Assembly (NCBI GenBank): GCA_049190315.1
Contig: JAIVWD010000004.1
Location: forward strand, 1 to 38,007
Source of the DNA: Deltaproteobacteria bacterium
GTDB taxonomy: Bacteria > Desulfobacterota > Desulfobacteria > Desulfobacterales > ETH-SRB1
Length of the DNA stretch: 38,007 bases
Reading direction: 5' to 3'
Under the pieces are notes generated by a model that was not told the origin of the DNA, searched no databases, and worked only from the letters and a program-made list of their open reading frames with translations. Shown here one piece after another: positions 459 to 38,005 of this stretch. How positions within the stretch are numbered: position 1 is the stretch's first letter; each line of letters begins with the position of its first letter. Both the position numbers and the translations under genes were made by a program.

Positions 459-743
459 ATGAATAAAGATTTATTTGAAAATGAATTATTGACACAAAAG
501 GAAGTCGCAGAATATTTTAGAGTTGTGCCTGGAACAGTAAAGAACTGGCGAGACCAAAGGCTATTATCATTTTGGCAAGCACCCGGCTCAACAAGAGTTC
601 TATATTACAGCGGGGAAATTAGAGATTTTAGGGACAGAAATACAATTTCAAAGAAAGGAGGTGATAGAGAAAAGGAAACGGCTAAAATTAAGAGGAAAAA
701 GCCTGATATATCATCCACACCAGACAAACAGTGGAGGATATAA
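459..743 (+). CDS. Excisionase-family / MerR-type helix-turn-helix DNA-binding protein
   Basis: The N-terminus LLTQKEVAEYFRVVPGTVKNWRDQRLL fits the excisionase-type HTH pattern. The C-terminal tail is basic. The gene sits immediately upstream of, and overlaps, the integrase ORF. Confidence 0.65.
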   Translation: MNKDLFENELLTQKEVAEYFRVVPGTVKNWRDQRLLSFWQAPGSTRVLYYSGEIRDFRDRNTISKKGGDREKETAKIKRKKPDISSTPDKQWRI

Positions 744-745
744 TT

Positions 746-1912
746 ATGGCGAAGAACAAAAATCATCATTTAGAAAAACGTGGAGACGTCTGGCATTTAA
801 TAACAATGGTCAGGGGTAAACGCATCAAAAAGGCATTGTCTGGGTCAATAACTGATGCCAGAAGACTTCGGGATAAATACCTTAAAGAAATAAGCCTACT
901 TGGCGACATCCAACGAAATGAGCCTGTAAAAGAGTCCAAATTGTTTGGCGAGGTCGCTCAACAATGGGCTAAAATAATGTCTCAAAAGGTAAAATCTTCA
1001 ACATTGAAGGATTATCGAGGCGCTATGAATTATTACATTCTGCCCAGGTTTGGAAATGTGCCAATCAATGACATTGATTTTCTGGATGTTGAAGAATTCA
1101 GAAGTACTATGAAATGTTCTAATAAAAGGAAAAACAATGTCCTTGTACCAATGCGCTCATTAATGAAGTTCGCCCTAAAAGCAGGATTGATAGACAAAAA
1201 CCCAATGGATTTGGTAGAGAACCTTTCAGTCAGCAAACCGGAAATTTATCCTATGTCTATCGAAAAAGTTCATCGGTTCCTGGATGTTGTCAATCCCCAA
1301 TATAAGAACTTTTTTATAGTGGCTTTTTATAGTGGGATGCGTTTCGGAGAGATGGCAGTTCTAAAATGGAAAAACATTGATTTTAAGTTAGGTGTCATCA
1401 AGGTCAGGGAAACAAGAGTACGGGGAGAAGAAGGTCGCCCCAAGACCGCAGGTTCAATTAGGGACATTAAAATGTTGCCTCCAACGGTTGAAGCGTTTAG
1501 AGACCAGCGGAAAGCCACGATGGGCAAGTCAGATTATGTGTTCCTGAATTTTTATGGTCGCCCACTGCTTCCCAATTCAGTGAGTTTTCATATTTGGAAA
1601 CCGGCATTAAAGAAAGCGGGATTGAAGCCAAGGTCGCTTTACCAGACCAGGCACACCTTCGCTACATTGATGCTGGATGCTGGGGAACTGCCAGGATGGG
1701 TTCAGAAAATGATGGGACACGAGAGCCTGAAAATGATACTGGAACGCTATTATTCCTATATCAAGAACTATCAGCGAGATGACGGTTCTGCGTTTATGGA
1801 TAATGTCTATAATCCGAGTGTAAAAGAGACTGACAAGACGTCAGACAAAGACGAAAAATCTGAAAATTTTACACCAAATTTACACCAAGATGAAAAAAGG
1901 AAATTGGCGTAA
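746..1912 (+). CDS. int: Tyrosine recombinase / phage-type integrase
   Basis: Catalytic signature: SGMRFGE (Arg), RHTFATLML (HxxR), MGHESL (His), ERYYSY (Tyr). A GGAGGA sequence at 733-738 supports the ATG at 746 over the GTG at 731. The gene ends 42 nt from the tmRNA 3' end. Confidence 0.9.
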   Translation: MAKNKNHHLEKRGDVWHLITMVRGKRIKKALSGSITDARRLRDKYLKEISLLGDIQRNEPVKESKLFGEVAQQWAKIMSQKVKSSTLKDYRGAMNYYILPRFGNVPINDIDFLDVEEFRSTMKCSNKRKNNVLVPMRSLMKFALKAGLIDKNPMDLVENLSVSKPEIYPMSIEKVHRFLDVVNPQYKNFFIVAFYSGMRFGEMAVLKWKNIDFKLGVIKVRETRVRGEEGRPKTAGSIRDIKMLPPTVEAFRDQRKATMGKSDYVFLNFYGRPLLPNSVSFHIWKPALKKAGLKPRSLYQTRHTFATLMLDAGELPGWVQKMMGHESLKMILERYYSYIKNYQRDDGSAFMDNVYNPSVKETDKTSDKDEKSENFTPNLHQDEKRKLA

Positions 1913-1954
1913 TTTCCAATCTCCTGTAATCATTAAACAAACAAACGATAATAA

Positions 1955-2305
1955 TGGTGGAGGCGGCGGGAGTCGAACCCGCGTCCGAAAATATTCCACA
2001 CAGGCATCTACATACTTAGCCTGAACTTTAGCTTTCGCCTGTTCAAGTCTCCTCCAGGCCGGATGCTTGAAAGGCTATCCTGTTTAAGTTTCGCTAATCC
2101 TGAAACAGGAAATCAGGAAAAGCTATCCTGCTAATCGTCGCCCTTGCCGGATGCGCAGGAATAATCCGGTAGAACGTTAGCCTAAGCGGCTAAAGCGTAA
2201 TTATAATCATCTGCGATTATATTAGTTCCAACCTTTTTTACGAGCAGGCAGGAGCTCGGTATGCAGCCGGAGCTTCTTTATCTCCGTCGAAGCCATTTCG
2301 CCCCC
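1955..2305 (-). ncRNA. ssrA: tmRNA (SsrA), tag peptide ADDYNYALAA
   Basis: On the minus strand the 5' end is GGGGGCGAAATGGCTTCGACGG and the 3' end is GGGTTCGACTCCCGCCGCCTCCACCA. The acceptor stem has the G3:U pair and there is a T-arm. The tag ORF GCA GAT GAT TAT AAT TAC GCT TTA GCC GCT TAG maps to 2182-2214. Confidence 0.95.
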
Positions 2306-2478
2306 ATAGGGAGGAAATGTTGCAGATATATTGAAAAGAACATTATGAGACCTCTAAAGCATTTTCTAAAGGACTTCATATAATTTAAAATAAGGGATAA
2401 ATGCCTTAATGTCAAGTTCCAAAGGTTGATAAAAAAATTTGTAGTGTCCTGTCATCTATGTAGTGTCGCAAATATAGC

Positions 2479-2580
2479 CGTCATTCCCGCGGAAGCGGGA
2501 ATCCAGAAACACCGAAGTAGTCAGAAATGCTTGTCCTCGACCTGATCGGGGAATGGATTCCCGCCTTCGCGGGAATGACG
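2479..2580. repeat. REP-like inverted pair of hairpins
   Basis: cgtcattcccgcggaagcgggaatcc (2479-2504) is inverted relative to ggattcccgccttcgcgggaatgacg (2555-2580). Each arm is itself a hairpin. Spurious ORFs across it read RFRGNDG / SFPRRRES. Confidence 0.7.
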
Positions 2581-2678
2581 ACTGCCTGATACGATATTTC
2601 ACGCATGACACGACAGTAGAGGTATTAAGACTTTGTGGGGGTTTATTGAACGAAATAAATCTTTTTGCGAATTTAAAG

Positions 2679-3161
2679 TCACCGGTTTTCCTTTTTTTCT
2701 CTGTCCAGTTCCCTTTTTTGATCGCGCCTTCTGATTGTCTCTCTTTTATCATACTTGCGCTTTCCCCTGGCAAGGGCAAGTGTCATTTTCACTTTTCCTT
2801 TTTTAAAATAAATGCTTAAGGGAATCAGAGAGTAACCCATTTCATTTACTTTACCATACAGCTTTTTGATCTCACGCTTGTTCAACAGCAGCTTTCTGGG
2901 CCTTAAAGGCTCATGATTGTTCTCTTGAGCAAAAGGATATGCCCCAATATGCATCTGATAAACAAAAACCTCTCCGTTTTTAATCTTTGCGTATGAATCC
3001 TTAAGATTAACTCTGCCGATTCTGAGGGATTTGACCTCGGTTCCGACAAGAACCATTCCGGCCTCATAAGTATCTTCTATAAAATAATTATATCTGGCCT
3101 TTCTATTTTCTGTAACAATTTTTTTGTGCTCTATCCCCAAATGCCGTCCTCTATCGCGCAT
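2679..3161 (-). CDS. smpB: SsrA-binding protein SmpB
   Basis: Motifs NRKARYNYFIEDTYEAGMVLVGTEVKSLR and LLLNKREIKKL, plus a basic C-terminal tail. The Met28 start (3161) gives 160 aa. The longer ORF-track start would run deep into ptsI. Confidence 0.9.
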   Translation of the reverse strand: MRDRGRHLGIEHKKIVTENRKARYNYFIEDTYEAGMVLVGTEVKSLRIGRVNLKDSYAKIKNGEVFVYQMHIGAYPFAQENNHEPLRPRKLLLNKREIKKLYGKVNEMGYSLIPLSIYFKKGKVKMTLALARGKRKYDKRETIRRRDQKRELDREKKENR

Positions 3162-4920
3162 ACACCTTTTCAGAAAGAATGCTGCCGAATGCTCCTCTAA
3201 CCAGTTTCTCAACTCCTGAGGCTGTGTTCTGTTTAAAAACATCTTTCATGAAGGCCCTGGCGTCTTCAACTTTAAGTGCCCTTATCATACTCTTTACAGC
3301 AGGAATCGACTGAGGGTTCATGCTTAATTCATCTATACCCAGGCCTAAAAGTATAGGCATGTTAATAGGATCGGCAGCCATCTCACCGCACATGAATAGC
3401 TTTATCCCTTTGTCTCTGACGACATCGGCGACATTTTTTATCATGCGTATAATAGCAGGATGAAGCGAATGGTAAAGGTGCGCTACATGTCTGTTTCCTC
3501 TATCTATTGCCAGTGAGTACTGGATAAGATCATTGGTGCCTAAACTGAAGAAATCTACTTCTCCTGCTAAAATATCCGCAATTATCACGGCAGAAGGGAC
3601 TTCGATCATTATCCCTAATTCAACATTTCTATTAAAGAGAGTTCCTTCTTTGTCCAGAGCATCAGCAACTTCATCCAATATTCTTTTTGTCTCAAGGACT
3701 TCCTCATAGCTCGATATCATGGGAATCAAAATCCTGACATTGCCAAAAGCCGCTGCCCTTAATATGGCCCTGAGCTGTGTTCTGAAGACATCAGGATTCT
3801 TCAGACAATACCTTATGGCTCGCAAGCCCAGGGCAGGATTGGCTTCCACGTAATCAGGATTATTACTAAATGCTTTGTCGCCGTTTATGTCGAGAGTGCG
3901 GATAGTTACCGGTTTCGGCGCAATCACCTCGACCACATCCTTGTATTTATCAAAAAGCTCATATTCATTTGGCAAACTAGGGCTGCTCAAATACTGGAAC
4001 TCTGTTCTGTAAAGTCCAATTCCATCTCCGCCGTAATCAATAACTGATACAACTTCTTCAGGAAGCTCGATATTGCCCATAACTTTTAACTGAAACCCAT
4101 CGGCAGTTTCAGCTTGAAGATGGCTGTCACGGGTAATAGCTGCTTTAAGTTCTTCGTATTTGGCGCTACGAACTCCATACTCCAAAAGAGTTTCTTCAGT
4201 GGGATGAATGATTACTGTGCCGACCGTACCATCAATAATAATTAAATCATCATTTTTAATGATATTAGTAGCATTGCCCAGACCCATGACAGCAGGAATC
4301 TCAAGGGTTCGGACTATAATGCTTGTATGAGATGTTTTTCCGCCCCGGTCAGTTACAAATCCCTTTATCCGCTCAAGATTTATCTGGCTTGCCTCTGCCG
4401 GAGAAAGATCGTTGGCGACAAGTATTACCCGTTTATCAATATCAGCAATTTTTTCTGATTCTGCTCCGACTAGATTTCTCATTATGCGGTCAGATACATA
4501 TACTATGTCAGTAGCGCGCTCTTTTAAATATGAGTCAGACATATTTTTAAACATGGATTTTACGTCTGATACTACCTTTTTGAGAGCCCACTCCGCATTT
4601 ACCTTTTCATTTTTAATTGCTTCAATTGTCCTGCCATACAGCATCTTATCTTTAAGCAGGACTTTGTGAGTTTCAAGTATATATGTATGATCGCGCAACT
4701 CATCGGGAGCATTAGTTATAATTGTAAGCAGTTGCTGCTTTGCCTTGTTCACAGCGCTTTTGAAACGTTTTATCTCATCCTGCACATTATCTTCGCTGAT
4801 AAAATACTTCTTTACAACGTCCACGCCTTCTATATCGACCAGATAAGCCTTTCCTATACAAATGCCAGGAGAAGCATTTATTCCGGTTAATATAATCTCT
4901 CTCGAAGCAATATCTGTCAT
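3151..4920 (-). CDS. ptsI: Phosphoenolpyruvate-protein phosphotransferase (PTS enzyme I)
   Basis: 589 aa with GINASPGICIGKAY, GGKTSHTSIIVRTLEIPAV (phospho-His region), GTNDLIQY and MCGEMA. Confidence 0.93.
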   Translation of the reverse strand: MTDIASREIILTGINASPGICIGKAYLVDIEGVDVVKKYFISEDNVQDEIKRFKSAVNKAKQQLLTIITNAPDELRDHTYILETHKVLLKDKMLYGRTIEAIKNEKVNAEWALKKVVSDVKSMFKNMSDSYLKERATDIVYVSDRIMRNLVGAESEKIADIDKRVILVANDLSPAEASQINLERIKGFVTDRGGKTSHTSIIVRTLEIPAVMGLGNATNIIKNDDLIIIDGTVGTVIIHPTEETLLEYGVRSAKYEELKAAITRDSHLQAETADGFQLKVMGNIELPEEVVSVIDYGGDGIGLYRTEFQYLSSPSLPNEYELFDKYKDVVEVIAPKPVTIRTLDINGDKAFSNNPDYVEANPALGLRAIRYCLKNPDVFRTQLRAILRAAAFGNVRILIPMISSYEEVLETKRILDEVADALDKEGTLFNRNVELGIMIEVPSAVIIADILAGEVDFFSLGTNDLIQYSLAIDRGNRHVAHLYHSLHPAIIRMIKNVADVVRDKGIKLFMCGEMAADPINMPILLGLGIDELSMNPQSIPAVKSMIRALKVEDARAFMKDVFKQNTASGVEKLVRGAFGSILSEKVYAR

Positions 4921-30260: not shown

Positions 30261-30824
30261 ATGACTGACTATTTTGATGTTACTCTTTACAGTGGCGGGC
30301 ATAAGGGAGCCGAGGCCGAGTTCGGAAAGCTTGCTGAGCGCTGGGGGATTCAGGAGGTTAACTTTTCGTTCGAGGGACACAATATCGAACGTACCAGAGG
30401 TGTCCGGGTGCTGAGCCTGGAAGAACTTGACAAGGGGGATGTCAGCATGGAAATAGTCTCTGCCCGCATGGGACGGAATTATTCAAAGGCTGAAAAAATA
30501 CGAAAGGTCATACAGTCTATTTTTCACATGGTCAACAATGGTTACCACGTGATAGCAGTCGGATGGATACAGCCGGATGACACCGTCAAAGGAGGAACCG
30601 GTTGGGGCGTTGAGCTTGCAAAGCTCTTTAACCGTCCACTCAATGTATATGACCAGGAACGCAAAACATGGTTCTCATGGAAGGATAACAAATGGGTTGC
30701 CGAAACGCCCGTTATTATCGACAAAACATTTGTCGGAACAGGAACCCGAAATCTCAGTGACGAAGGCCGCAAAGCAATTCACGAACTTTTCGAAAACTCC
30801 TTTGGACCCGCAAAAGAGAAATGA
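30261..30824 (+). CDS. LOG/SLOG-superfamily-like Rossmann protein (putative nucleotide-binding or nucleotide-processing)
   Basis: 187 aa with an AAGGAG SD sequence. YSGGHKGAEAEFG resembles the LOG GGGxxGxMG motif. KGGTGWGVELAKLFNRPLNVYD resembles PGGxGTxEE followed by KPxxLxN. The assignment rests on motif resemblance only. Confidence 0.4.
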   Translation: MTDYFDVTLYSGGHKGAEAEFGKLAERWGIQEVNFSFEGHNIERTRGVRVLSLEELDKGDVSMEIVSARMGRNYSKAEKIRKVIQSIFHMVNNGYHVIAVGWIQPDDTVKGGTGWGVELAKLFNRPLNVYDQERKTWFSWKDNKWVAETPVIIDKTFVGTGTRNLSDEGRKAIHELFENSFGPAKEK

Positions 30825-30932: not shown

Positions 30933-32969
30933 TCAGCATGTTGCTCCAAGCGCCTTAAATGCGGCGTCAACAGGATCAGAATAAAAGCTGGTCTGGAATT
31001 TGGCAAAGAGTTCTCCTGGGATAGTCTGAATATCACCAACATTGCTCATGGGTATCAAAATACGTTTGGCGCCTGAATCAAAAGCCACTTGCAAGGTTTC
31101 AGCAAGATTTGCAGTTGGCACAATGTTTCCTCCCAGGCTCATGTCGCCAAGAACGACCATTTGACTTTGTATCGGTTTGCTCATAAGCCCTGAGCACAAT
31201 ACAACAAAGCTACAGAGGGTTAATGCACTTGCAGCGCCGGTATTGTACATTTCCACGATATGGATATGGTAGTCATGATCTCCAACCTTGCTCATCGAAC
31301 TCACTCTTTTTATGTTAGCTTTAAAATAATCGAACGCTATCTTGATCGCCTCTTTAGTCTTGGGATTAACTCCAGAACCGGAAATGGAGAGTTTGCCGTT
31401 TCCTCCGACGACCTGAAGTTCCAGCCTGTAGAGTCCCAAATGTTCACTTGTGCCGAGAGCAACTGTATGCATTGTGCCAGGACTCAGTGGTCCTTCAGGT
31501 ATTAATGAACCGCCTCTCTGTTCAGGAACGCTAACAAACTTTTCTTCGAGTGTCTCATTGTCTATATAACTAAAATGAACATCATAAAATTCCATGCCTC
31601 CGATTTTCTTGAGCTGTTCCTTAACTCGTCTTCGGTTTTCCAGCGCATAGACAAAACAACGTTCCACTGCATCCTTGTCAAATTCACCATGAGGATAAAG
31701 CAATTTTAGTAAACCGGAAACGCTCTTGCGCACTGCAATGACATCTCTCTGGTTCAAGTTGTTTCCGATCTTGAAATACTGATCTATAGCATCAGAAAAG
31801 CTCCTCTTACGCATTTCCCGCAAAAATTCAGCGAGAAAATCGACAATCAATCCATATTGATTCGTCAAAAATTCAGGGCGCATTTTGGGAATTTCCCACC
31901 CTGGAAGATATGCATGCATCCGGTCAAAAAACGCCGAATCAATCATTTCTTCAGGAAACGGTGCAAAGAGATGACCTGTCTTTACAAGAACATCGACGCT
32001 CTGGTTGATATTTCCCACAAAAACCATAGCGGCATTTGCACTGATAACATCACGTCCCCTGGAAAAAGAACCTGATGCCATAAAATCTTTCATTATCTGC
32101 ACGCCATCCTTGTCTTTAAATCTGATTCCAGCTACCTCGTCAAATGCTACCACATCCCATACACCGACCAACCCCACTAGTCGGCTGCTCATATTATAAA
32201 ATAGATTTGCGACAGTAGTCTGGCCACCTGAAACCAGTATCGAGTTTGGACTGATTTCTTTGTAAATGTGACTTTTGCCTGTCCCTCTTGGCCCGAGTTC
32301 GCAAATATTATAATTGTTTTCAACAAAAGGTATTAAACGCGCTATAAGATGCCATTTGACGCGCTCCTCAAAGTTTGTTGGCTCCAAACCGGTTGACCTA
32401 AGAAGAACATCCAGCCACTGGCTTTCGGTAAATGCTCTTCTACCTTCAAAGACTGCTTGCATATCGAGATTAGGCATCTGAATCGGCTTGATTTCGGAGA
32501 TTATAAAAGGAGAACCTTTTGATCCCTCATCATAAAAATATTGCAGGTTAAGAATACACCAGATTCCGCCAACGAGAAGTTTCTCGTACTTTTTGATGGT
32601 TTCGCTCGATATTTCAATGCCCTTGACACCGAGATTAGAGAGCATTGCCTCGTAAACGTCTCTTTTTTCGTTCAACTTGACGGTAACTTTGTCGATGATT
32701 TTATAATTGCCCAGCTCTTTTATTTTTGATTTGATCTTTTCAGCTTCATCCGGTCTGACATAATTTTCGGCCAGGATATTCTTGACTGTATTAAGTCCAT
32801 CCTGAATTACTTCCTCATCATCTACCGCACAATACATTCCAAGGAGATATTCCAGAACGTAAACCGGGACATTTGCTCCTTCCTTAAGCAGTTTTGTCAG
32901 GTCTTTGCGCACAACACGACCAGCAAAGTGAATATTAAGCAAGTTGTCAATGTTTGTATCAGTTTTCAT
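30933..32969 (-). CDS. brxL: BREX system Lon protease-like protein BrxL
   Basis: Motifs: LLNIHFAGRVVRKDLTKLLKEGANVPVYVLEYLLGMYCA, ELGPRGTGKSH (Walker A), VAFDEVAG, NLNQRDVIAVRK, and the Lon-like C-terminus MVVLGDMSLGG..SGAKRILIPM. The start is set at Met28 (32969). Confidence 0.93.
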   Translation of the reverse strand: MKTDTNIDNLLNIHFAGRVVRKDLTKLLKEGANVPVYVLEYLLGMYCAVDDEEVIQDGLNTVKNILAENYVRPDEAEKIKSKIKELGNYKIIDKVTVKLNEKRDVYEAMLSNLGVKGIEISSETIKKYEKLLVGGIWCILNLQYFYDEGSKGSPFIISEIKPIQMPNLDMQAVFEGRRAFTESQWLDVLLRSTGLEPTNFEERVKWHLIARLIPFVENNYNICELGPRGTGKSHIYKEISPNSILVSGGQTTVANLFYNMSSRLVGLVGVWDVVAFDEVAGIRFKDKDGVQIMKDFMASGSFSRGRDVISANAAMVFVGNINQSVDVLVKTGHLFAPFPEEMIDSAFFDRMHAYLPGWEIPKMRPEFLTNQYGLIVDFLAEFLREMRKRSFSDAIDQYFKIGNNLNQRDVIAVRKSVSGLLKLLYPHGEFDKDAVERCFVYALENRRRVKEQLKKIGGMEFYDVHFSYIDNETLEEKFVSVPEQRGGSLIPEGPLSPGTMHTVALGTSEHLGLYRLELQVVGGNGKLSISGSGVNPKTKEAIKIAFDYFKANIKRVSSMSKVGDHDYHIHIVEMYNTGAASALTLCSFVVLCSGLMSKPIQSQMVVLGDMSLGGNIVPTANLAETLQVAFDSGAKRILIPMSNVGDIQTIPGELFAKFQTSFYSDPVDAAFKALGATC

Positions 32970-33058
32970 ATTTTTTACCTTTAGAGCCTGTTTAAAAAAT
33001 GATGAATTGGCTGCAAAAGCGTGAAAATGGTTCAATTCCCTAGTTTTCAAACAGGCTC

Positions 33059-35683
33059 TTAGAAATCGTTTGCAAAGGCTATATCTATTATTGTCGGTAT
33101 TCGATCATATTCGGTGTCATCAATGTTTCGTAATACAAGATAATACTCCTTTTTATTGTCATAGGATCCTGTCTTTAGCGCCAGTTTTACGGATTTTTGG
33201 CGTTCATCCATTGATGAAGACCTGCTGTCAAATGTAACTGTTTCTTCATTGCTTATAAGCTCATTTCCATCACGAAGAGACACCTTCAACGTTATTGGCT
33301 TCATGCGGTCAGACACAGCATCGGTTTGGATAAATTTATAAATTGGTCTATTAGTTACCAGCTTCTTGTATGAACCAAGCAGCGATACGCCAACTTGACG
33401 CACTTCGGATTTTTCCAGATGTTTCCCCTTCATTTCGTATGCTGTAATCACAGGGATTACAATTTCCTGAAGCATAGCGCCACCATGGAAAAATCTTGCC
33501 CCGCCGACAAAATTGAAACGATTCGTGCCTTTAGGCAGCAAAAATTCCATATCTGTATCTGTTTTAGCCGTTATTCTTGTATTGCCGGAGAAGGCTTTAT
33601 CCGATTTGCCTAAATTTCTCCCAAGTATGAATCTTTTATGGGTTTTTACCGCATCTTTTTGATTTGTCTCAAGTTTGCTTTTATCAATGGGTTCAGGAGT
33701 TTTCTCCTGATAAATAAATCCATGATCTGCTGTTATGATAACCCTTGTCCCGTTTAAACTATTTATGATGAATCTAACCAGCGCATACAGGTCATTTATG
33801 GCTTTTCGCACAGCCTCAAATGTATTACTTTCCGATACAGCTTTATCACCGATTGCATCAATCTGATCATGGTAAATATAGATGACTCGATGCGGTTTAA
33901 CAAACTCCCGCCCTTTATCCTTGCTCATGGACATCAGGTTATCTGCTTTGATCGCAGTGCCGCTATATTTTCCTAAAATATCCGCACGTTGATCCAGTGA
34001 TCCGGCCGGTTTTTCATCTATAACAATATCCGCAGTCGGACTGTCTTTGAAGGAAATAGTTTTATGAGGCAACAATGATGCCATTCCCAAAGCCGTGTAT
34101 CCGGGCAGAATGCCTAACATTGGCTCAATCTCGGCTTTCAGACGGTATTTACCATTAATTTTCTGAGCAAGTTCCTCTGCGGCTTCAAAGCGGAAAGCAT
34201 CGCTGACAATAACAAACAGCCGGTTTCTGGAAGACCCTTTCAGTGTCGGGTTAACATATCTATTAAAAAAATCGTACTGGTTGACTACATTTGGAATTTT
34301 CCATTTTTTAAGCAGATTATCAGAATGTTCTGTTTCTAAAAAGTCACCCCATTTCAGTGACAGTTGATCCATATACCAGCCGCTATAGCAGTTCTCAACA
34401 GTCTCTCTAAGCGATTTCAGGACATCCCAGCCCGCCAGATCAGCTTTATCTGCAAGCTCATGAAATTTCCTGTAATGTTGATCAAATAAAAACAGTTCGT
34501 TTGTATATGCTTTAAACATATCTTCAGCCGTGGGGTAACTGAAGCCCGCATCATATTTCTTCCTGAGATCGAACAGTTTGATAGCAGCCTCTAATGCGTG
34601 ATAAGCCGTTTGATAAAGGTTTATCTGAGAATCTTCACTTAAAACAGTGGTTGCCCAGTATCCGTCAAGTCTGATCTTGATCGCCTCCCGTACCTTCTGA
34701 TATTCATTTTCGGAATCGATACCGATTTGATCCCTGAGATCGCTGATAATCCTGCGCTCTACGGACTCAAATGTCATCACCTCAATTAATGACTCAATAT
34801 CATAGGATATCAGCAATTCATCAATTTTCAGCTTTTTGGCAATAAACTTTGAAATAAGATTAAAGTTCTTAAAATGACCGGTGTTGCTGCGCCACTGAGA
34901 CAGAAATACAGATGAATTCATTGCCTGAGAGGAGCTTTGAATTACAAAATGGGAAATAGATGCCGGCAGCTCGGCTTTTAGGCTATTTGAAAGATCGGTC
35001 ACAAACAACCGAAGCAAAAAATCAGTTAAATTCGGAGAATCTTCGTTTATGTACCCAAATGTCTGAGCCAGAAGTCTCCAGAATGAAGGCTTTAATTCAA
35101 GTTTTCCAATTTCTGTCCACAATTTGGAGGGTTTATCAACATCAAACTTGCCATCCCGGCAAAACGAGTCAAATAGTTTCATCAGGATTGAAAATAGCTC
35201 GGGCTGTTCAGCCCTTGTGATGACAGCGAGCATTTTAAGCTCTATATCTTCTTCTCTGTCACCTGGGGTGACCCATTTCTTCAGCCTGTTGAGCCTGTCC
35301 TGACTTCTAAAAAAAGCCTTACGTTTCTTTAAGTATGGGCGTATGCTTTGATTTTCAAGGTTCAGTTCCTTTAGAAGGATAGAAGCTTTATCTGCATGGA
35401 AAGTATAACTGTAAAGCCGTATATCATAAAGCCAGTCATCTTCAGGAGCGGGCTCAGGGTAAGGAGCATAAAGTATATATTTCCCGGTTGTGTCTTCAAG
35501 CTCCAGCCTGATCTTTAAGTCAAGTAAACCGATTTCATTCAAACGTAAAATATTAACGCCATCCATCTCAAGAAAAGGTATTGTCTGCTCAAATTCCTTT
35601 TCGCCATCATACCAGAAGATGATACGCTTGTTTTCTTCATTGAAAATTTTATTCAGGCTGTCTTCGATTTGTTTGATGTCCAT
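33059..35683 (-). CDS. pglZ: BREX phosphatase-like protein PglZ (type A)
   Basis: About 874 aa. The N-terminus has RIIFWYDGEKEF. The alkaline-phosphatase-like core reads LFVIVSDAFRFE ... ITADHGF. It lies immediately upstream of brxL, as in type 1 BREX. The start is set at MDIKQIE (35683). Confidence 0.88.
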   Translation of the reverse strand: MDIKQIEDSLNKIFNEENKRIIFWYDGEKEFEQTIPFLEMDGVNILRLNEIGLLDLKIRLELEDTTGKYILYAPYPEPAPEDDWLYDIRLYSYTFHADKASILLKELNLENQSIRPYLKKRKAFFRSQDRLNRLKKWVTPGDREEDIELKMLAVITRAEQPELFSILMKLFDSFCRDGKFDVDKPSKLWTEIGKLELKPSFWRLLAQTFGYINEDSPNLTDFLLRLFVTDLSNSLKAELPASISHFVIQSSSQAMNSSVFLSQWRSNTGHFKNFNLISKFIAKKLKIDELLISYDIESLIEVMTFESVERRIISDLRDQIGIDSENEYQKVREAIKIRLDGYWATTVLSEDSQINLYQTAYHALEAAIKLFDLRKKYDAGFSYPTAEDMFKAYTNELFLFDQHYRKFHELADKADLAGWDVLKSLRETVENCYSGWYMDQLSLKWGDFLETEHSDNLLKKWKIPNVVNQYDFFNRYVNPTLKGSSRNRLFVIVSDAFRFEAAEELAQKINGKYRLKAEIEPMLGILPGYTALGMASLLPHKTISFKDSPTADIVIDEKPAGSLDQRADILGKYSGTAIKADNLMSMSKDKGREFVKPHRVIYIYHDQIDAIGDKAVSESNTFEAVRKAINDLYALVRFIINSLNGTRVIITADHGFIYQEKTPEPIDKSKLETNQKDAVKTHKRFILGRNLGKSDKAFSGNTRITAKTDTDMEFLLPKGTNRFNFVGGARFFHGGAMLQEIVIPVITAYEMKGKHLEKSEVRQVGVSLLGSYKKLVTNRPIYKFIQTDAVSDRMKPITLKVSLRDGNELISNEETVTFDSRSSSMDERQKSVKLALKTGSYDNKKEYYLVLRNIDDTEYDRIPTIIDIAFANDF

Positions 35684-35709: not shown

Positions 35710-36237
35710 TTATCCCGACCTCTTTACCGGGCATTGTTTCAGTTTTTCATTCCAGGTTTGCTCATTGAATACAAGCGCTTCTTCAACATAATGGTTCTTC
35801 CATGCAGAATTGTCCGGTCCCAACAAACAGCTTGAGCGTTTCAGATCTTCCATTGATCTGAGCAGCAATGCCGGATCAAGGTTTCCAATGGCCAAAAGAA
35901 CGAGATACTTCATAGGCTTGGACGGGAGTTTCTTGCTCAAATGAAGATACAGAAAGCTGTCCTTGATCTTTGGGCCAAGTTCATTTGAAAAAATAGTTTC
36001 ATTATCTATCTTTGCAATGAATTTTTTCAATTCATTTCTTCTGATTTCAGAAGGTATCTTTGAGTTAGACGGGTCTTTCACTTCCACGAACCAAAACTCA
36101 TTATCCCATTCCACTATAAAGTCCACCGCTTTCATGCAGTGGGACAATTTGTGCGTATCCTTATCATCAAACTGATCTGACTTGATCGCAGCAGAAAAAT
36201 CAAATACAAGCTCACCCTCACTTAATACCTTACCCAT
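35710..36237 (-). CDS. Small PD-(D/E)xK-like putative nuclease, partner of the upstream ATPase
   Basis: About 175 aa from MGKVLSEGE. The candidate restriction-endonuclease-fold motif is KAVDFIVEWDNEFWFVEVKD (D...E-V-K). The start overlaps the ATPase stop by 8 nt. The gene ends 26 nt before the pglZ start. Confidence 0.55.
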   Translation of the reverse strand: MGKVLSEGELVFDFSAAIKSDQFDDKDTHKLSHCMKAVDFIVEWDNEFWFVEVKDPSNSKIPSEIRRNELKKFIAKIDNETIFSNELGPKIKDSFLYLHLSKKLPSKPMKYLVLLAIGNLDPALLLRSMEDLKRSSCLLGPDNSAWKNHYVEEALVFNEQTWNEKLKQCPVKRSG

Positions 36238-37234
36238 TGGCACCCCCCATCGCCCGGTCGATTTCAAGATTGTACATTCTTGCAAACTGGTCAGCAATTC
36301 TATTAGGAGATAGACCAGGGTAGGAATCTGATACAGCCAAATTGATTTCCCGGTTCTTGTCCATAAATAATGAATAAAACCGAAGAGAATGGTCCTTGCG
36401 TTGAAGATCAAACTCCTTTAGCAAAGCATAGCTGTGAGTCGCAATGAAGATTTGTACGCCCATTCTTTCCAGTTCCAGAAGAATCATTACAATCAAAGGG
36501 AGCATGGATGGATTAAGGTTAGCCTCTGGTTCGTCCCAGTAAAGGGTCGATCCTTTTTCTATGGATCCGTTTCTGATCAAAAGCCAGAGAAGAGCAAGCT
36601 TGCGCATACCTTCGGCCACAAGGGTAAACTCAATTTCACCAGTTTTGTTTTTTAAAAAGAATACTTCATTTTTTTCCAGAACTTTTCCCCCCATTGCTTT
36701 TTGCAGCGCCTTTAGAATCTTTTCCTTCTCAGAGCTTATGCTTTTAAGCGGTGGCAGGAGCGCCTTGTCGATGATGTCAGCATAAATCTCCTCGAAATGG
36801 ATTTCTCTTTCATTATAAAGCGACCTGAACCCAGGCGCATTGGCGAGCATCTCTTTGACAGGAATATACACCGATTTAGACGGCCGCATGTGCTCTGGTC
36901 CCAATTCCGTATGAAGCCCATTATCTTTGAGGGTACCTGTTAATAGTTCGCCATTTTTGGTAATAGATATCGAAAATTTCTCTTTCGACCCTTTTCCCCG
37001 CCGAACCAGCCGTTTCAATAAAAAACCTTGGGGTAAAAATACTCTCAACAGCTTATTTGCAAATTCCTTAAAAAGTCCCCTTTTGATTCCCGTTGCATGA
37101 AACGAATATAAAAGCTTTAACAAATGGGTTTTCCCCGTTCCGTTTTCCCCAATGAACAGATTAACCCCGGGCACAAAGTCAATTTCCAGCTCATCAAATA
37201 CAGTAAAATTTTTAATTTTAATTTTTTCAATCAT
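36230..37234 (-). CDS. ABC/SMC-like AAA ATPase (AAA_21/AAA_15-like)
   Basis: About 334 aa from MIEKIKIKNFTVFDELEIDF. Walker A is GENGTGKTHLL, a signature-like segment is VAEGMRKLALLW, Walker B is TLYWDEPEANL and the H-loop is IATHS. The start is set at Met23 because the upstream codons translate a REP. Confidence 0.8.
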   Translation of the reverse strand: MIEKIKIKNFTVFDELEIDFVPGVNLFIGENGTGKTHLLKLLYSFHATGIKRGLFKEFANKLLRVFLPQGFLLKRLVRRGKGSKEKFSISITKNGELLTGTLKDNGLHTELGPEHMRPSKSVYIPVKEMLANAPGFRSLYNEREIHFEEIYADIIDKALLPPLKSISSEKEKILKALQKAMGGKVLEKNEVFFLKNKTGEIEFTLVAEGMRKLALLWLLIRNGSIEKGSTLYWDEPEANLNPSMLPLIVMILLELERMGVQIFIATHSYALLKEFDLQRKDHSLRFYSLFMDKNREINLAVSDSYPGLSPNRIADQFARMYNLEIDRAMGGANG

Positions 37235-37250
37235 AATAGATTCCTCTATA

Positions 37251-37367
37251 GTAGGAGGGGTTTTAACCCCGAATATACGGGTGGTTTTAACCCCGACCAT
37301 ATATGGGTGAATTTACATCTGTTGGTGATCTGCCACAATAGGTCGCGGTTGAAACCGCTCCTACATC
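37251..37367. repeat. REP doublet (REPIN-like)
   Basis: gtaggaggggttttaaccccg... is inverted relative to ggtcgcggttgaaaccgctcctac. It is a direct copy of 37913-38005 with a 23-nt internal duplication. Confidence 0.75.
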
Positions 37368-37828
37368 CAAATGGCATCCCACAATGGATAATCATAAATA
37401 TTTTCAACCAACCCGGCCCTTAACGGATTGGCCACAATATATCGAGCGGTCTGGCGGATATCTTCTTCCTTTCGCAGAGCATGATCGTGAAAGGCTTTTT
37501 CCCATACAGAACCGCTACGTTTAACTGTTTGGTTGATCTTATGGGATGATCTACCTTTTAAAAGTTTTATCACCTGAGATAAATCTTCCTTTTCGGTTAA
37601 TCCGAATAGCCAGTGAAGGTGGTCGGGCATCAGCACCCACGCCAGAGAGTTTGCAATGCCATCATATTCCAATCGACGCATTTCCTTTACAACCAGCCGA
37701 CCGACAAACAGATCATTAAAAAAAGGCCGGCGGGCGTTGGTTACCGTGGTCACAAGATATATACGGTTGGGTTGGGACCATCGACCCTTGCGCAATGCTT
37801 TGTGACCCGGCGGTTTGTTTTTTTTCAT
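37361..37828 (-). CDS. REP-associated tyrosine transposase (RAYT, IS200/IS605 Y1 family)
   Basis: HUH motif PDHLHWLF and catalytic Tyr region TARYIVANPLRAG. It is flanked on both sides by REPs. The start is set at MKKNKPPG because the upstream codons (CRSGFNRD) translate a REP. Confidence 0.85.
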   Translation of the reverse strand: MKKNKPPGHKALRKGRWSQPNRIYLVTTVTNARRPFFNDLFVGRLVVKEMRRLEYDGIANSLAWVLMPDHLHWLFGLTEKEDLSQVIKLLKGRSSHKINQTVKRSGSVWEKAFHDHALRKEEDIRQTARYIVANPLRAGLVENIYDYPLWDAIWM

Positions 37829-37860
37829 GTAAACATAACCTGACTCAATTTTATTTCTGC

Positions 37861-37885
37861 CGTCGCGGTTGAAACCGCTCCTACA
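37861..37885. repeat. REP unit
   Basis: cgtcgcggttgaaaccgctcctaca has the same sequence and orientation as 37341-37365 and 37979-38003. Confidence 0.75.
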
Positions 37886-37912
37886 TTCAAATGGCATAGA
37901 TCTATTCTGCCT

Positions 37913-38005
37913 GTAGGAGGGGTTTTAACCCCGACCATATATGGGTGAATTTACATCTGTTGGTGATCTGCTACAATAGGTCGCGGTTGAAACCGCTCCT
38001 ACATT
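37913..38005. repeat. REP doublet (REPIN-like), second copy, cut by the window end
   Basis: gtaggaggggttttaaccccgaccatatatgggtgaatttacatctgttggtgatctgctacaataggtcgcggttgaaaccgctcctacat is nearly identical to 37251-37367. Confidence 0.75.

What the first reader, a model, noticed from the sequence alone, without database searches (positions are those of the whole stretch)
35710..37234. ATPase + small PD-(D/E)xK-like protein cassette directly upstream of pglZ-brxL: candidate undescribed defence module
What the sequence shows:
- Two co-directional genes sit immediately 5' of pglZ on the same strand.
- The first is an ABC/SMC-like ATPase of about 334 aa, with GENGTGKT, YWDEPEANL and ATHS.
- The second is a protein of about 175 aa with a D...EVK restriction-endonuclease-like motif (VDFIVEWDNEFWFVEVKD).
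- The two overlap by 8 nt, which suggests translational coupling. The second ends 26 nt before the pglZ start.

Established knowledge: the junction between pglX and pglZ in type 1 BREX loci is a known insertion point for extra immunity genes. PARIS AriAB, an ABC ATPase plus a TOPRIM nuclease, is one example in enterobacterial BREX loci.

Inference: this pair has the same sensor-ATPase plus nuclease-effector logic, but the effector is short and non-TOPRIM, non-HNH. I cannot place it in PARIS, Septu, Gabija, Lamassu or OLD by motif.
Basis: partly seen in the sequence, partly recalled or inferred. Interest (0 to 1): 0.82.

Follow-up and report, generated by a model that had tools for sequence, protein, structure and literature searches.

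The report
HEC-02 defence pair embedded in BREX
The two genes are a real ATPase-plus-nuclease anti-phage pair nested inside a BREX defence locus, but they belong to the HEC-02 family, which was described and tested in 2024, so this is a new member of a known system and not an undescribed one.

Summary
On the minus strand, a 334-aa ABC ATPase gene (37234..36230) overlaps a 175-aa gene (36237..35710) by 8 nt, directly upstream of pglZ-brxL. The small protein carries a conserved D39...E52-x-K54 motif.

Both proteins match existing PADLOC models over their full length: HEC-02A at E=3.8e-116 and HEC-02B at E=3.3e-54. HEC-02 (ABC ATPase plus NERD/PD-(D/E)xK protein) was reported by Payne et al. (bioRxiv 10.1101/2024.01.29.577857). 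They found it as an "Hma-embedded candidate" and showed that it protects E. coli from phages, with both genes required.

- **Pairing:** a B relative occurs in 317 species genomes. In all 80 loci fetched, an A homologue lies directly upstream on the same strand.
- **Context:** near relatives show brxA-brxB-brxC-pglX-(RAYT)-A-B-pglZ-brxL. Others sit after pglXI in type 3-like BREX loci.
- **Distance from the tested system:** the window's proteins are only 36% (A) and about 28% (B, N-terminal part) identical to the tested Dickeya pair. This clade is untested and the mechanism is unknown.
- **Side observation:** the first ~200 codons of A are a recombination mosaic among close relatives.

Interest is low.

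The parts
36230..37234 (-). HEC-02A: ABC (Rad50/SMC-head-like) ATPase, 334 aa. Walker A is GENGTGKT, the signature-like motif is AEGMRKL, Walker B is LYWDEPE and the H-loop is ATHS.
   Evidence: PADLOC PDLC04213 HEC-02A, E=3.8e-116, 386 bits, profile positions 1-335 of 337. Pfam AAA_21 and AAA_15. Motif residues are invariant in 40 homologues. AF2 model pLDDT 84; Foldseek top hits are Rad50, PtuA and SMC heads at E about 1e-14, TM 0.5-0.6. 36% identical over 300 aa to the tested Dickeya HEC-02A.
35710..36237 (-). HEC-02B: 175-aa putative PD-(D/E)xK (NERD-like) nuclease effector with the motif D39...E52-V-K54.
   Evidence: PADLOC PDLC04227 HEC-02B, E=3.3e-54, 181 bits, profile positions 10-178 of 184. 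E52 and K54 are invariant and D39 is conserved in at least 90% of 36 homologues. AF2 pLDDT 90.8, with D39 at the start of strand 40-43 and E52/K54 in strand 48-54. hhalign to the tested Dickeya HEC-02B gives probability 96%, with the motif aligned. No Pfam hit. Foldseek gives only weak matches, mostly to PD-(D/E)xK nucleases.
36230..36237 (-). 8-nt overlap (ATGGGTAA) between the stop of A and the start of B, a translational-coupling junction.
   Evidence: Sequence read directly. In 77 related loci the A stop and B start overlap by 1-8 nt in 52 and lie 0-7 nt apart in 22.
33059..35683 (-). pglZ (BREX-1 phosphatase, type A), host-system gene directly downstream.
   Evidence: TIGR02687 E=1.1e-266; PADLOC PglZ 1026 bits.
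30933..33050 (-). brxL (Lon-like BREX protein), last gene of the host BREX locus.
   Evidence: TIGR02653 1168 bits; Pfam BrxL_N, BrxL_ATPase and Lon_C.
37361..37897 (-). REP-associated tyrosine transposase (RAYT), also embedded between pglX and HEC-02. It is a neighbour, not part of the system.
   Evidence: NF047646 E=4.2e-45. Present in L081 and L082 but absent in L001 and from the other loci.
37276..37366 (.). 91-nt REP-type unit between RAYT and the start of A. A second copy lies at 37914-38004.
   Evidence: The two copies are 96% identical. The core 23-mer occurs only here in the window, with 0 matches expected by chance.

Best explanation
The cassette is a member of the HEC-02 anti-phage system. 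It is a translationally coupled pair: an ABC ATPase (HEC-02A) and a small PD-(D/E)xK/NERD-like nuclease (HEC-02B). It is embedded in the same orientation between pglX and pglZ of a type 1 BREX locus in a Desulfobacteraceae-like chromosome.

Shown here:
- Family membership of both proteins.
- Strict pairing of the two genes.
- Conservation of the ATPase and D...ExK motifs.
- The embedded BREX context.

Taken from the literature: a Dickeya homologue expressed on its own in E. coli lowers the plaquing of several phages by orders of magnitude and needs both genes.

Inferred:
- A and B form a complex in which the ATPase, through its variable inserts, senses a phage cue.
- ATP binding or hydrolysis then licenses or releases the B nuclease, which cuts nucleic acid and stops the infection, possibly at the cost of the cell.
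- The pair acts as a self-sufficient second layer that is co-expressed with BREX. It is not a BREX subunit.
For: - **Model matches.** PADLOC gives full-length, top-ranked hits to HEC-02A (E=3.8e-116) and HEC-02B (E=3.3e-54). The next system types are at least 90 orders weaker (AriA, E=3.4e-22).
- **Published evidence.** Payne et al. 2024 describe HEC-02 as an ABC ATPase plus a NERD protein. It reduced EOP, and both genes were required.
- **Comparison with the tested proteins.** A is 36% identical over 300 aa (E=7e-58). For B, hhalign gives 96% probability, with KAxD...FWxxEVKD aligned.
- **Pairing.** 80 of 80 loci with a B relative have A directly upstream on the same strand. The junction overlaps or abuts in 74 of 77 loci.
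- **Context.** L081 reads brxA-brxB-brxC-pglX-RAYT-A-B-pglZ-brxL. L001 reads pglX-A-B-pglZ-brxL. L054 reads pglXI-A-B-brxH-pglZ-brxA. 14 of 66 upstream neighbours are PglXI, and 9 of 74 downstream neighbours are BrxH/HmaA-type helicases.
- **ATPase fold.** The ABC fold is supported by the model and fold search.
- **Catalytic motifs.** They are invariant in the homologue alignments.
Against: - The window's clade is distant from the only tested representative. B aligns to it over just its N-terminal ~84 columns, so activity is inferred by homology.
- The nuclease fold of B is not confirmed independently. There is no Pfam NERD hit even at E<=10. There is no Foldseek hit at E<=1e-3 in PDB or BFVD; the best was N.BspD6I at probability 0.66 and TM 0.39.
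- Neither the trigger, the substrate (DNA or RNA) nor complex formation is known for any HEC-02.
- pglX is outside the window, so embedding is inferred from 86-90% identical relatives.
Confidence: 0.88

Rival explanations
1. This is a truly undescribed defence module, distinct from all catalogued systems.
For: Pfam and NCBIfam give no family for B and only generic AAA_21/AAA_15 for A. B has no significant structural neighbour in PDB or BFVD. It is distant from the tested Dickeya pair, at 36% and about 28% identity.
Against: Both proteins match PADLOC HEC-02 models over their full length, at 386 and 181 bits. Those models were built from the family published by Payne et al.. The architecture, gene order, sizes and motifs are the same.
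Confidence: 0.03
2. The pair is an integral accessory of BREX that works only together with PglX/PglZ/BrxL, for example as a nuclease arm of BREX, and is not an autonomous system.
For: It has the same orientation as the BREX genes, tight spacing and no convincing internal promoter or terminator. It recurs right after the methyltransferase gene in BREX type 1 and type 3-like loci.
Against: Most of the 80 loci show no BREX neighbour. PglZ/BrxL of type 1 was found in only 3 loci, and a PglXI upstream neighbour in 14 of 66. The Dickeya pair, taken from an Hma locus, defends on its own in E. coli.
Confidence: 0.06
3. The pair is a toxin-antitoxin or addiction module, or a housekeeping Rad50/RecF-like repair ATPase with a nuclease, unrelated to phage defence.
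For: Pfam labels AAA_21 a 'putative AbiEii toxin'. The closest solved folds include Rad50 and SMC heads.
Against: The taxonomic distribution is patchy, covering 317 species across many phyla. The pair is repeatedly embedded in BREX or RM-like loci. A family member has direct plaque-assay evidence. There is no coiled-coil insertion and no Mre11/SbcD partner.
Confidence: 0.02
4. The pair is cargo brought in by the adjacent RAYT/REP element.
For: RAYT and two 91-nt REP units lie directly upstream of A. The same arrangement is seen in L081 and L082.
Against: L001 has pglX-A-B-pglZ without RAYT. None of the other 79 loci has a close RAYT; there is one weak hit 2 kb away in L065. RAYTs are not known to move cargo genes (own knowledge).
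Confidence: 0.01

Closest known systems
HEC-02 (Payne et al. 2024, bioRxiv 10.1101/2024.01.29.577857; tested pair WP_024108366.1 / WP_024108365.1 from Dickeya dianthicola NCPPB 3534)
   Same: It is a two-gene operon, ATPase first. The ABC ATPase is about 335-342 aa and the protein with the D...ExK motif about 170-175 aa. It is embedded co-directionally in a methylation-based defence locus. Both window proteins hit the HEC-02 PADLOC models over their full length.
   Different: The host system here is BREX type 1 rather than Hma. A is only 36% identical. B is about 28% identical over the N-terminal 76 residues, and its C-terminal half is not alignable. The organism is an uncultured Desulfobacteraceae-like bacterium. 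This clade is untested.
PARIS (AriA ABC ATPase + AriB TOPRIM nuclease)
   Same: It uses the same ABC ATPase sensor plus separate nuclease effector logic. It is also found embedded in BREX loci. AriA models give the best non-HEC hits (E=3.4e-22).
   Different: The effector here is not TOPRIM/DUF4435. The AriA hits are partial and about 94 orders of E-value weaker than HEC-02A. No AriB model hits B.
Septu (PtuA ABC ATPase + PtuB HNH nuclease) and retron-associated PtuAB
   Same: PtuA is among the closest solved structures to the A model (8eea, 8sux; E about 2e-14, TM about 0.5). It is also an ATPase plus small nuclease pair.
   Different: PtuB is an HNH nuclease, whereas B has a D...ExK motif and no HNH. 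PtuA PADLOC and NCBIfam hits cover only the Walker A region.
HEC-01 / HEC-03 / HEC-04, Gabija GajA, OLD-family nucleases
   Same: They share the same superfamily of defence ABC ATPases with variable inserts 1 and 2.
   Different: Their partners or fusions are TOPRIM (HEC-01, HEC-04, GajA, OLD) or PIN (HEC-03). Their models score E=1e-10 to 1e-17 against 1e-116 for HEC-02A.
NERD (Pfam PF08378) / PD-(D/E)xK nucleases
   Same: B has a beta-hairpin carrying D39 and E52-x-K54. Payne et al. superpose HEC-02B on a NERD model.
   Different: There is no NERD hit by HMM at E<=10 in any of 36 family members. Structural matches to solved PD-(D/E)xK enzymes are weak, with TM at most 0.39.

Membership tests
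HEC-02 (PADLOC) | The ATPase component matches an HEC-02A profile. | tested here: met
   PDLC04213, E=3.8e-116, 386 bits, residues 23-352 of the long ORF against profile 1-335 of 337.
HEC-02 (PADLOC) | The small component matches an HEC-02B profile. | tested here: met
   PDLC04227, E=3.3e-54, 181 bits, profile 10-178 of 184. Nine further HEC-02B models also hit.
HEC-02 (PADLOC) | The two genes are adjacent, on the same strand, ATPase first. | tested here: met
   8-nt overlap in the window. 80 of 80 related loci are adjacent and co-directional.
HEC-02 (PADLOC) | Confers phage resistance, with both genes required. | not testable with these tools
   Shown only for the Dickeya representative. The window proteins are 36% and about 28% identical to it.
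ABC ATPase (Rad50/SMC-like clade) | Walker A, Walker B with a catalytic Glu, an H-loop and a signature-like motif. | tested here: met
   G29, N31, T33, G34, K35, T36; D234-E235; H267; and G209, R211, K212 are invariant in 40 sequences, with E208 nearly invariant.
ABC ATPase (Rad50/SMC-like clade) | ABC head fold. | tested here: met
   AF2 pLDDT 84. 918 PDB hits at E<=1e-3; the top hits are Rad50, PtuA and SMC heads, probability 1.00, TM 0.5-0.6.
PD-(D/E)xK nuclease superfamily | Conserved D...(D/E)xK catalytic motif on a beta-hairpin. | tested here: met
   D39 is conserved in at least 90% of sequences; E52 and K54 are invariant. Strands 40-43 and 48-54 carry them in a model with pLDDT 90.8.
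PD-(D/E)xK nuclease superfamily | Significant structural similarity to solved or predicted PD-(D/E)xK enzymes. | tested here: inconclusive
   No Foldseek hit at E<=1e-3. The weak hits are enriched in PD-(D/E)xK folds (N.BspD6I at probability 0.66 and TM 0.39, HamA, Hjc, Mus81, endonuclease I, VRR-NUC).
NERD domain (PF08378) | Match to the Pfam NERD profile. | tested here: not met
   No NERD hit at E<=10 for any of 36 family members. The NERD assignment rests on Payne et al.'s structure superposition.
PARIS | AriA-type ATPase together with an AriB TOPRIM/DUF4435 effector. | tested here: not met
   AriA models hit A only partially (E=3.4e-22). No AriB model hits B.
Septu | PtuA together with a PtuB HNH nuclease. 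| tested here: not met
   The PtuA hit (E=2.2e-11) has its best match at the Walker A region. No PtuB or HNH hit for B.
BREX type 1 (host locus) | brxA, brxB, brxC, pglX, pglZ and brxL are all present. | tested here: inconclusive
   pglZ (TIGR02687, 887 bits) and brxL (TIGR02653, 1168 bits) are in the window. The window ends before pglX. The 86-90% identical relative L081 carries the full set.

The most novel reading that the evidence does not exclude
This Desulfobacteraceae clade of HEC-02 may be functionally distinct from the tested Dickeya system. The C-terminal half of B does not align to the tested protein. The N-terminal ~200 codons of A (Walker A, insert 1 and insert 2) are exchanged by recombination among otherwise nearly identical loci. 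This would fit a swappable sensor module that guards BREX, for example one triggered by anti-BREX proteins as PARIS is by Ocr.
Probability: 0.12. Interest if true: 0.5.

Novelty: new member of a known kind. Interest (0 to 1): 0.18.

Why it matters
The practical value is modest.
- It records that HEC-02, discovered through Hma embedding, also occupies the pglX/pglZ hotspot of type 1 BREX and the pglXI/brxH junction of type 3-like BREX in environmental bacteria.
- It shows that the pair is strictly conserved across many phyla.
- The mechanism of HEC-02 (trigger, substrate, role of ATP) is still unknown. Natural variants whose sensor half has been swapped while the rest stays nearly identical could help map specificity determinants.

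As a discovery claim it does not stand, because the system is already catalogued and tested.

Tried and rejected
- **Exact-sequence look-up of B** in the assembly index found nothing. The 97% identical P0001 was used instead.
- **Pfam and NCBIfam on B** gave no family. A lenient Pfam scan of 36 family members gave only single sub-threshold hits (RE_SinI, DUF2726, SduA_C) and no NERD.
- **Profile search of B against PDB sequences** gave only chance-level hits, the best being ferritin at E=0.11.
- **Foldseek of the B model** against PDB and BFVD gave nothing at E<=1e-3.
- **Promoter and terminator scan** around the cassette was no better than shuffled sequence, so nothing can be said about separate transcription.
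- **RAYT as carrier of the cassette** was rejected, because L001 and the other loci lack it.
- **Positive point-mutational selection** as the cause of the variable part of A was rejected. Synonymous sites in codons 1-200 are saturated while codons 201-334 have dS about 0.2, which points to recombination.
- **Literature search for later work on HEC-02** found only the 2024 preprint and papers that use PADLOC annotations.

Full report
**Observation**

The region 35710-37234 holds two minus-strand genes.
- Gene A starts at the ATG at 37234, with AGAGGA 7 nt upstream, and ends at TAA 36232..36230 (334 aa).
- Gene B starts at the ATG at 36237 and ends at TAA 35712..35710 (175 aa). The two overlap by ATGGGTAA, 8 nt.
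- A longer 356-aa reading of A from 37300 runs into a REP repeat and has no support from profiles or homologues.
- Downstream lie pglZ (long ORF from 35734) and brxL (33050..30933). The likely pglZ start is the ATG at 35683, because profiles begin at residues 18-22.

One point needs correcting. pglX is not in the window. The gene directly upstream of A is a REP-associated tyrosine transposase (NF047646, E=4.2e-45).

**What it is**

Pfam sees only generic AAA_21/AAA_15 in A and nothing in B. NCBIfam gives nothing specific. PADLOC-DB gives full-length, top-ranked hits:
- A matches HEC-02A (PDLC04213, E=3.8e-116, 386 bits, profile 1-335 of 337).
- B matches HEC-02B (PDLC04227, E=3.3e-54, 181 bits, profile 10-178 of 184), plus nine other HEC-02B sub-models.
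- The next system types are far weaker: AriA at 3.4e-22, ATPase-Toprim at 1.6e-17, AbiLi, NsnB, GajA and PtuA.

HEC-02 is one of nine "Hma-embedded candidates" in Payne et al. 2024 (bioRxiv 10.1101/2024.01.29.577857). It is an ABC ATPase with a NERD (PD-(D/E)xK) protein. When expressed in E. coli it reduced the plaquing of at least two phages by orders of magnitude, and both genes were required.

The tested pair comes from Dickeya dianthicola (Table S2).
- The window's A is 36% identical to it over 300 aa (E=7e-58).
- B is 28% identical over its first 76 residues.
- The B family profile aligns to it with 96% probability across 84 columns, including KAxD...FWxxEVKD.

**The proteins**

*A.*
- In 40 homologues the invariant residues are Walker A (G29, N31, T33, G34, K35, T36), the signature-like G209, R211, K212 (E208 is nearly invariant), Walker B D234-E235 and H-loop H267.
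- The AF2 model (pLDDT 84) matches Rad50, PtuA and SMC heads at E about 1e-14 and TM 0.5-0.6. This agrees with Payne et al.'s ABC classification.

*B.*
- It has 246 relatives, none with a Pfam domain.
- E7, H33, E52, K54, K90 and D93 are invariant, and D39 is nearly so.
- The AF2 model is confident (pLDDT 90.8). It places D39 at the start of strand 40-43 and E52/K54 in the paired strand 48-54, the usual PD-(D/E)xK hairpin.
- Independent fold confirmation is weak. No Foldseek hit reaches E<=1e-3 in PDB or BFVD. The weak hits are mostly PD-(D/E)xK enzymes (N.BspD6I, HamA, Hjc, Mus81, endonuclease I, VRR-NUC).
- No Pfam NERD hit appears even at E<=10.
- I therefore file B as PD-(D/E)xK-like by motif and topology. 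The NERD label rests on the published superposition only.

**Conservation and context**

- A pattern scan of one genome per species found 317 genomes with a B relative.
- In all 80 fetched loci an A homologue lies directly upstream on the same strand.
- In 52 of 77 loci the genes overlap by 1-8 nt, and in 22 more they lie 0-7 nt apart.
- The closest relatives show the host system. L081 (B 97% identical, DNA 86-90%) reads brxA-brxB-brxC-pglX-RAYT-A-B-pglZ-brxL. L001 reads pglX-A-B-pglZ-brxL without the RAYT.
- Among more distant loci, 14 of 66 upstream neighbours are PglXI and 9 of 74 downstream neighbours are BrxH/HmaA-type helicases.
- L054 (Zavarzinia) reads pglXI-A-B-brxH-pglZ-brxA. L009 sits among type IIG methyltransferase-like genes.
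- Most loci show no such neighbour, so the pair is not tied to BREX.
- The rest of the window is housekeeping (dnaE, guaB, thrS, rpsA, rnd, smpB, cytochromes).

**How it most likely works**

Shown:
- The pair is obligate and translationally coupled.
- The ATPase and D/E/K residues are conserved.

From the literature: a homologue defends on its own and needs both genes.

Inferred:
- A and B form a complex.
- The ATPase senses a phage cue through its variable inserts.
- ATP binding or hydrolysis releases or activates the B nuclease.
- Cleavage of DNA or RNA stops the infection.
- Co-orientation with BREX gives co-expression and a back-up layer.

Trigger, substrate and stoichiometry are unknown for every HEC-02.

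**Rivals**

- *Undescribed system.* Refuted.
- *BREX-dependent accessory.* Unlikely, given the many non-BREX contexts and the stand-alone activity of the Dickeya pair.
- *Toxin-antitoxin or repair module.* Unlikely, given the distribution, the embedding and the plaque data.
- *RAYT cargo.* Unlikely, because RAYT is absent from L001 and from the other loci.

**Side observation**

Among the window, L081 and L001:
- A codons 201-334 and all of B are 90-97% identical, with dS 0.18-0.34.
- A codons 1-200 have saturated synonymous divergence (pS 0.45-1.0). Amino-acid identity falls to 5-60% per 20-residue block within residues 41-120, and to 35-75% within residues 161-200.

This is the signature of recombination that swaps the N-terminal, insert-bearing half of the ATPase, not of point-mutational selection. 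It fits the published idea that the inserts set specificity, but it is not evidence of a new kind of system.

**Verdict**

- This is a new, divergent, untested member of a known and catalogued system.
- Interest is low.

Noticed in passing
window 37361-37897 (-), with repeats at 37276-37366 and 37914-38004: A REP-associated tyrosine transposase sits inside the BREX locus between pglX (outside the window) and HEC-02A. It is flanked by two 91-nt REP-type units that are 96% identical. The 23-nt core GTAGGAGCGGTTTCAACCGCGAC occurs only here in the window. The same insertion is present in L081 and L082 but absent in L001. In L081 a further, inverted copy lies between brxC and pglX.
   Followed up: partly
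window 36635-37234 (A codons 1-200) versus 36230-36634 and 35710-36237: The ATPase gene is a recombination mosaic relative to L081 and L001. Codons 1-200 have saturated synonymous divergence, and amino-acid identity is 5-60% per 20-residue block within residues 41-120 and 35-75% within residues 161-200. Codons 201-334 and all of B have dS about 0.2-0.3 and 90-97% identity.
   Followed up: partly
window 33058-35170 (pglZ): pglZ is also mosaic relative to L081. Positions 34561-33058 are only 65% identical in DNA and 35170-34561 gives no blastn match, while the flanks (HEC-02 and brxL) are 86-89% identical. Against L001 the whole pglZ-brxL stretch is a uniform 83%.
   Followed up: no
PADLOC-DB models PDLC04146 and PDLC04145: Two PADLOC profiles appear to be cross-labelled. 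PDLC04146, named HEC-02B, matches the ATPase (E=5.4e-66, profile 1-301 of 344). PDLC04145, named HEC-02A, matches the small protein (E=2.8e-07).
   Followed up: no
window 731-3242: A tyrosine integrase (731-1912, +) abuts the 3' end of a tmRNA gene (1955-2305, -; tag ADDYNYALAA), with smpB next to it (2679-3242, -). This is the usual layout of an element integrated at ssrA. The element itself would lie to the left of the window.
   Followed up: no
window 30261-30824 (+): A 187-aa ORF convergent on brxL has no Pfam, NCBIfam or PADLOC family. Its only hint is a sub-threshold match to the SLOG/YspA-related family at the N-terminus (E=0.045).
   Followed up: partly
L054:6139-16076 and 13 other loci: In type 3-like BREX loci (pglXI-...-brxH-pglZ-brxA) HEC-02 sits directly after the methyltransferase gene, the same relative position as after pglX in type 1 loci.
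   Followed up: partly
L009:8336-8908 and L009:14328-14900: In Desulfobacterales bacterium HSG2 the HEC-02 pair lies among three large type IIG methyltransferase-like genes and an HKD+Snf2 helicase. Two equally sized 190-aa ORFs recur between them. They were not examined.
   Followed up: no
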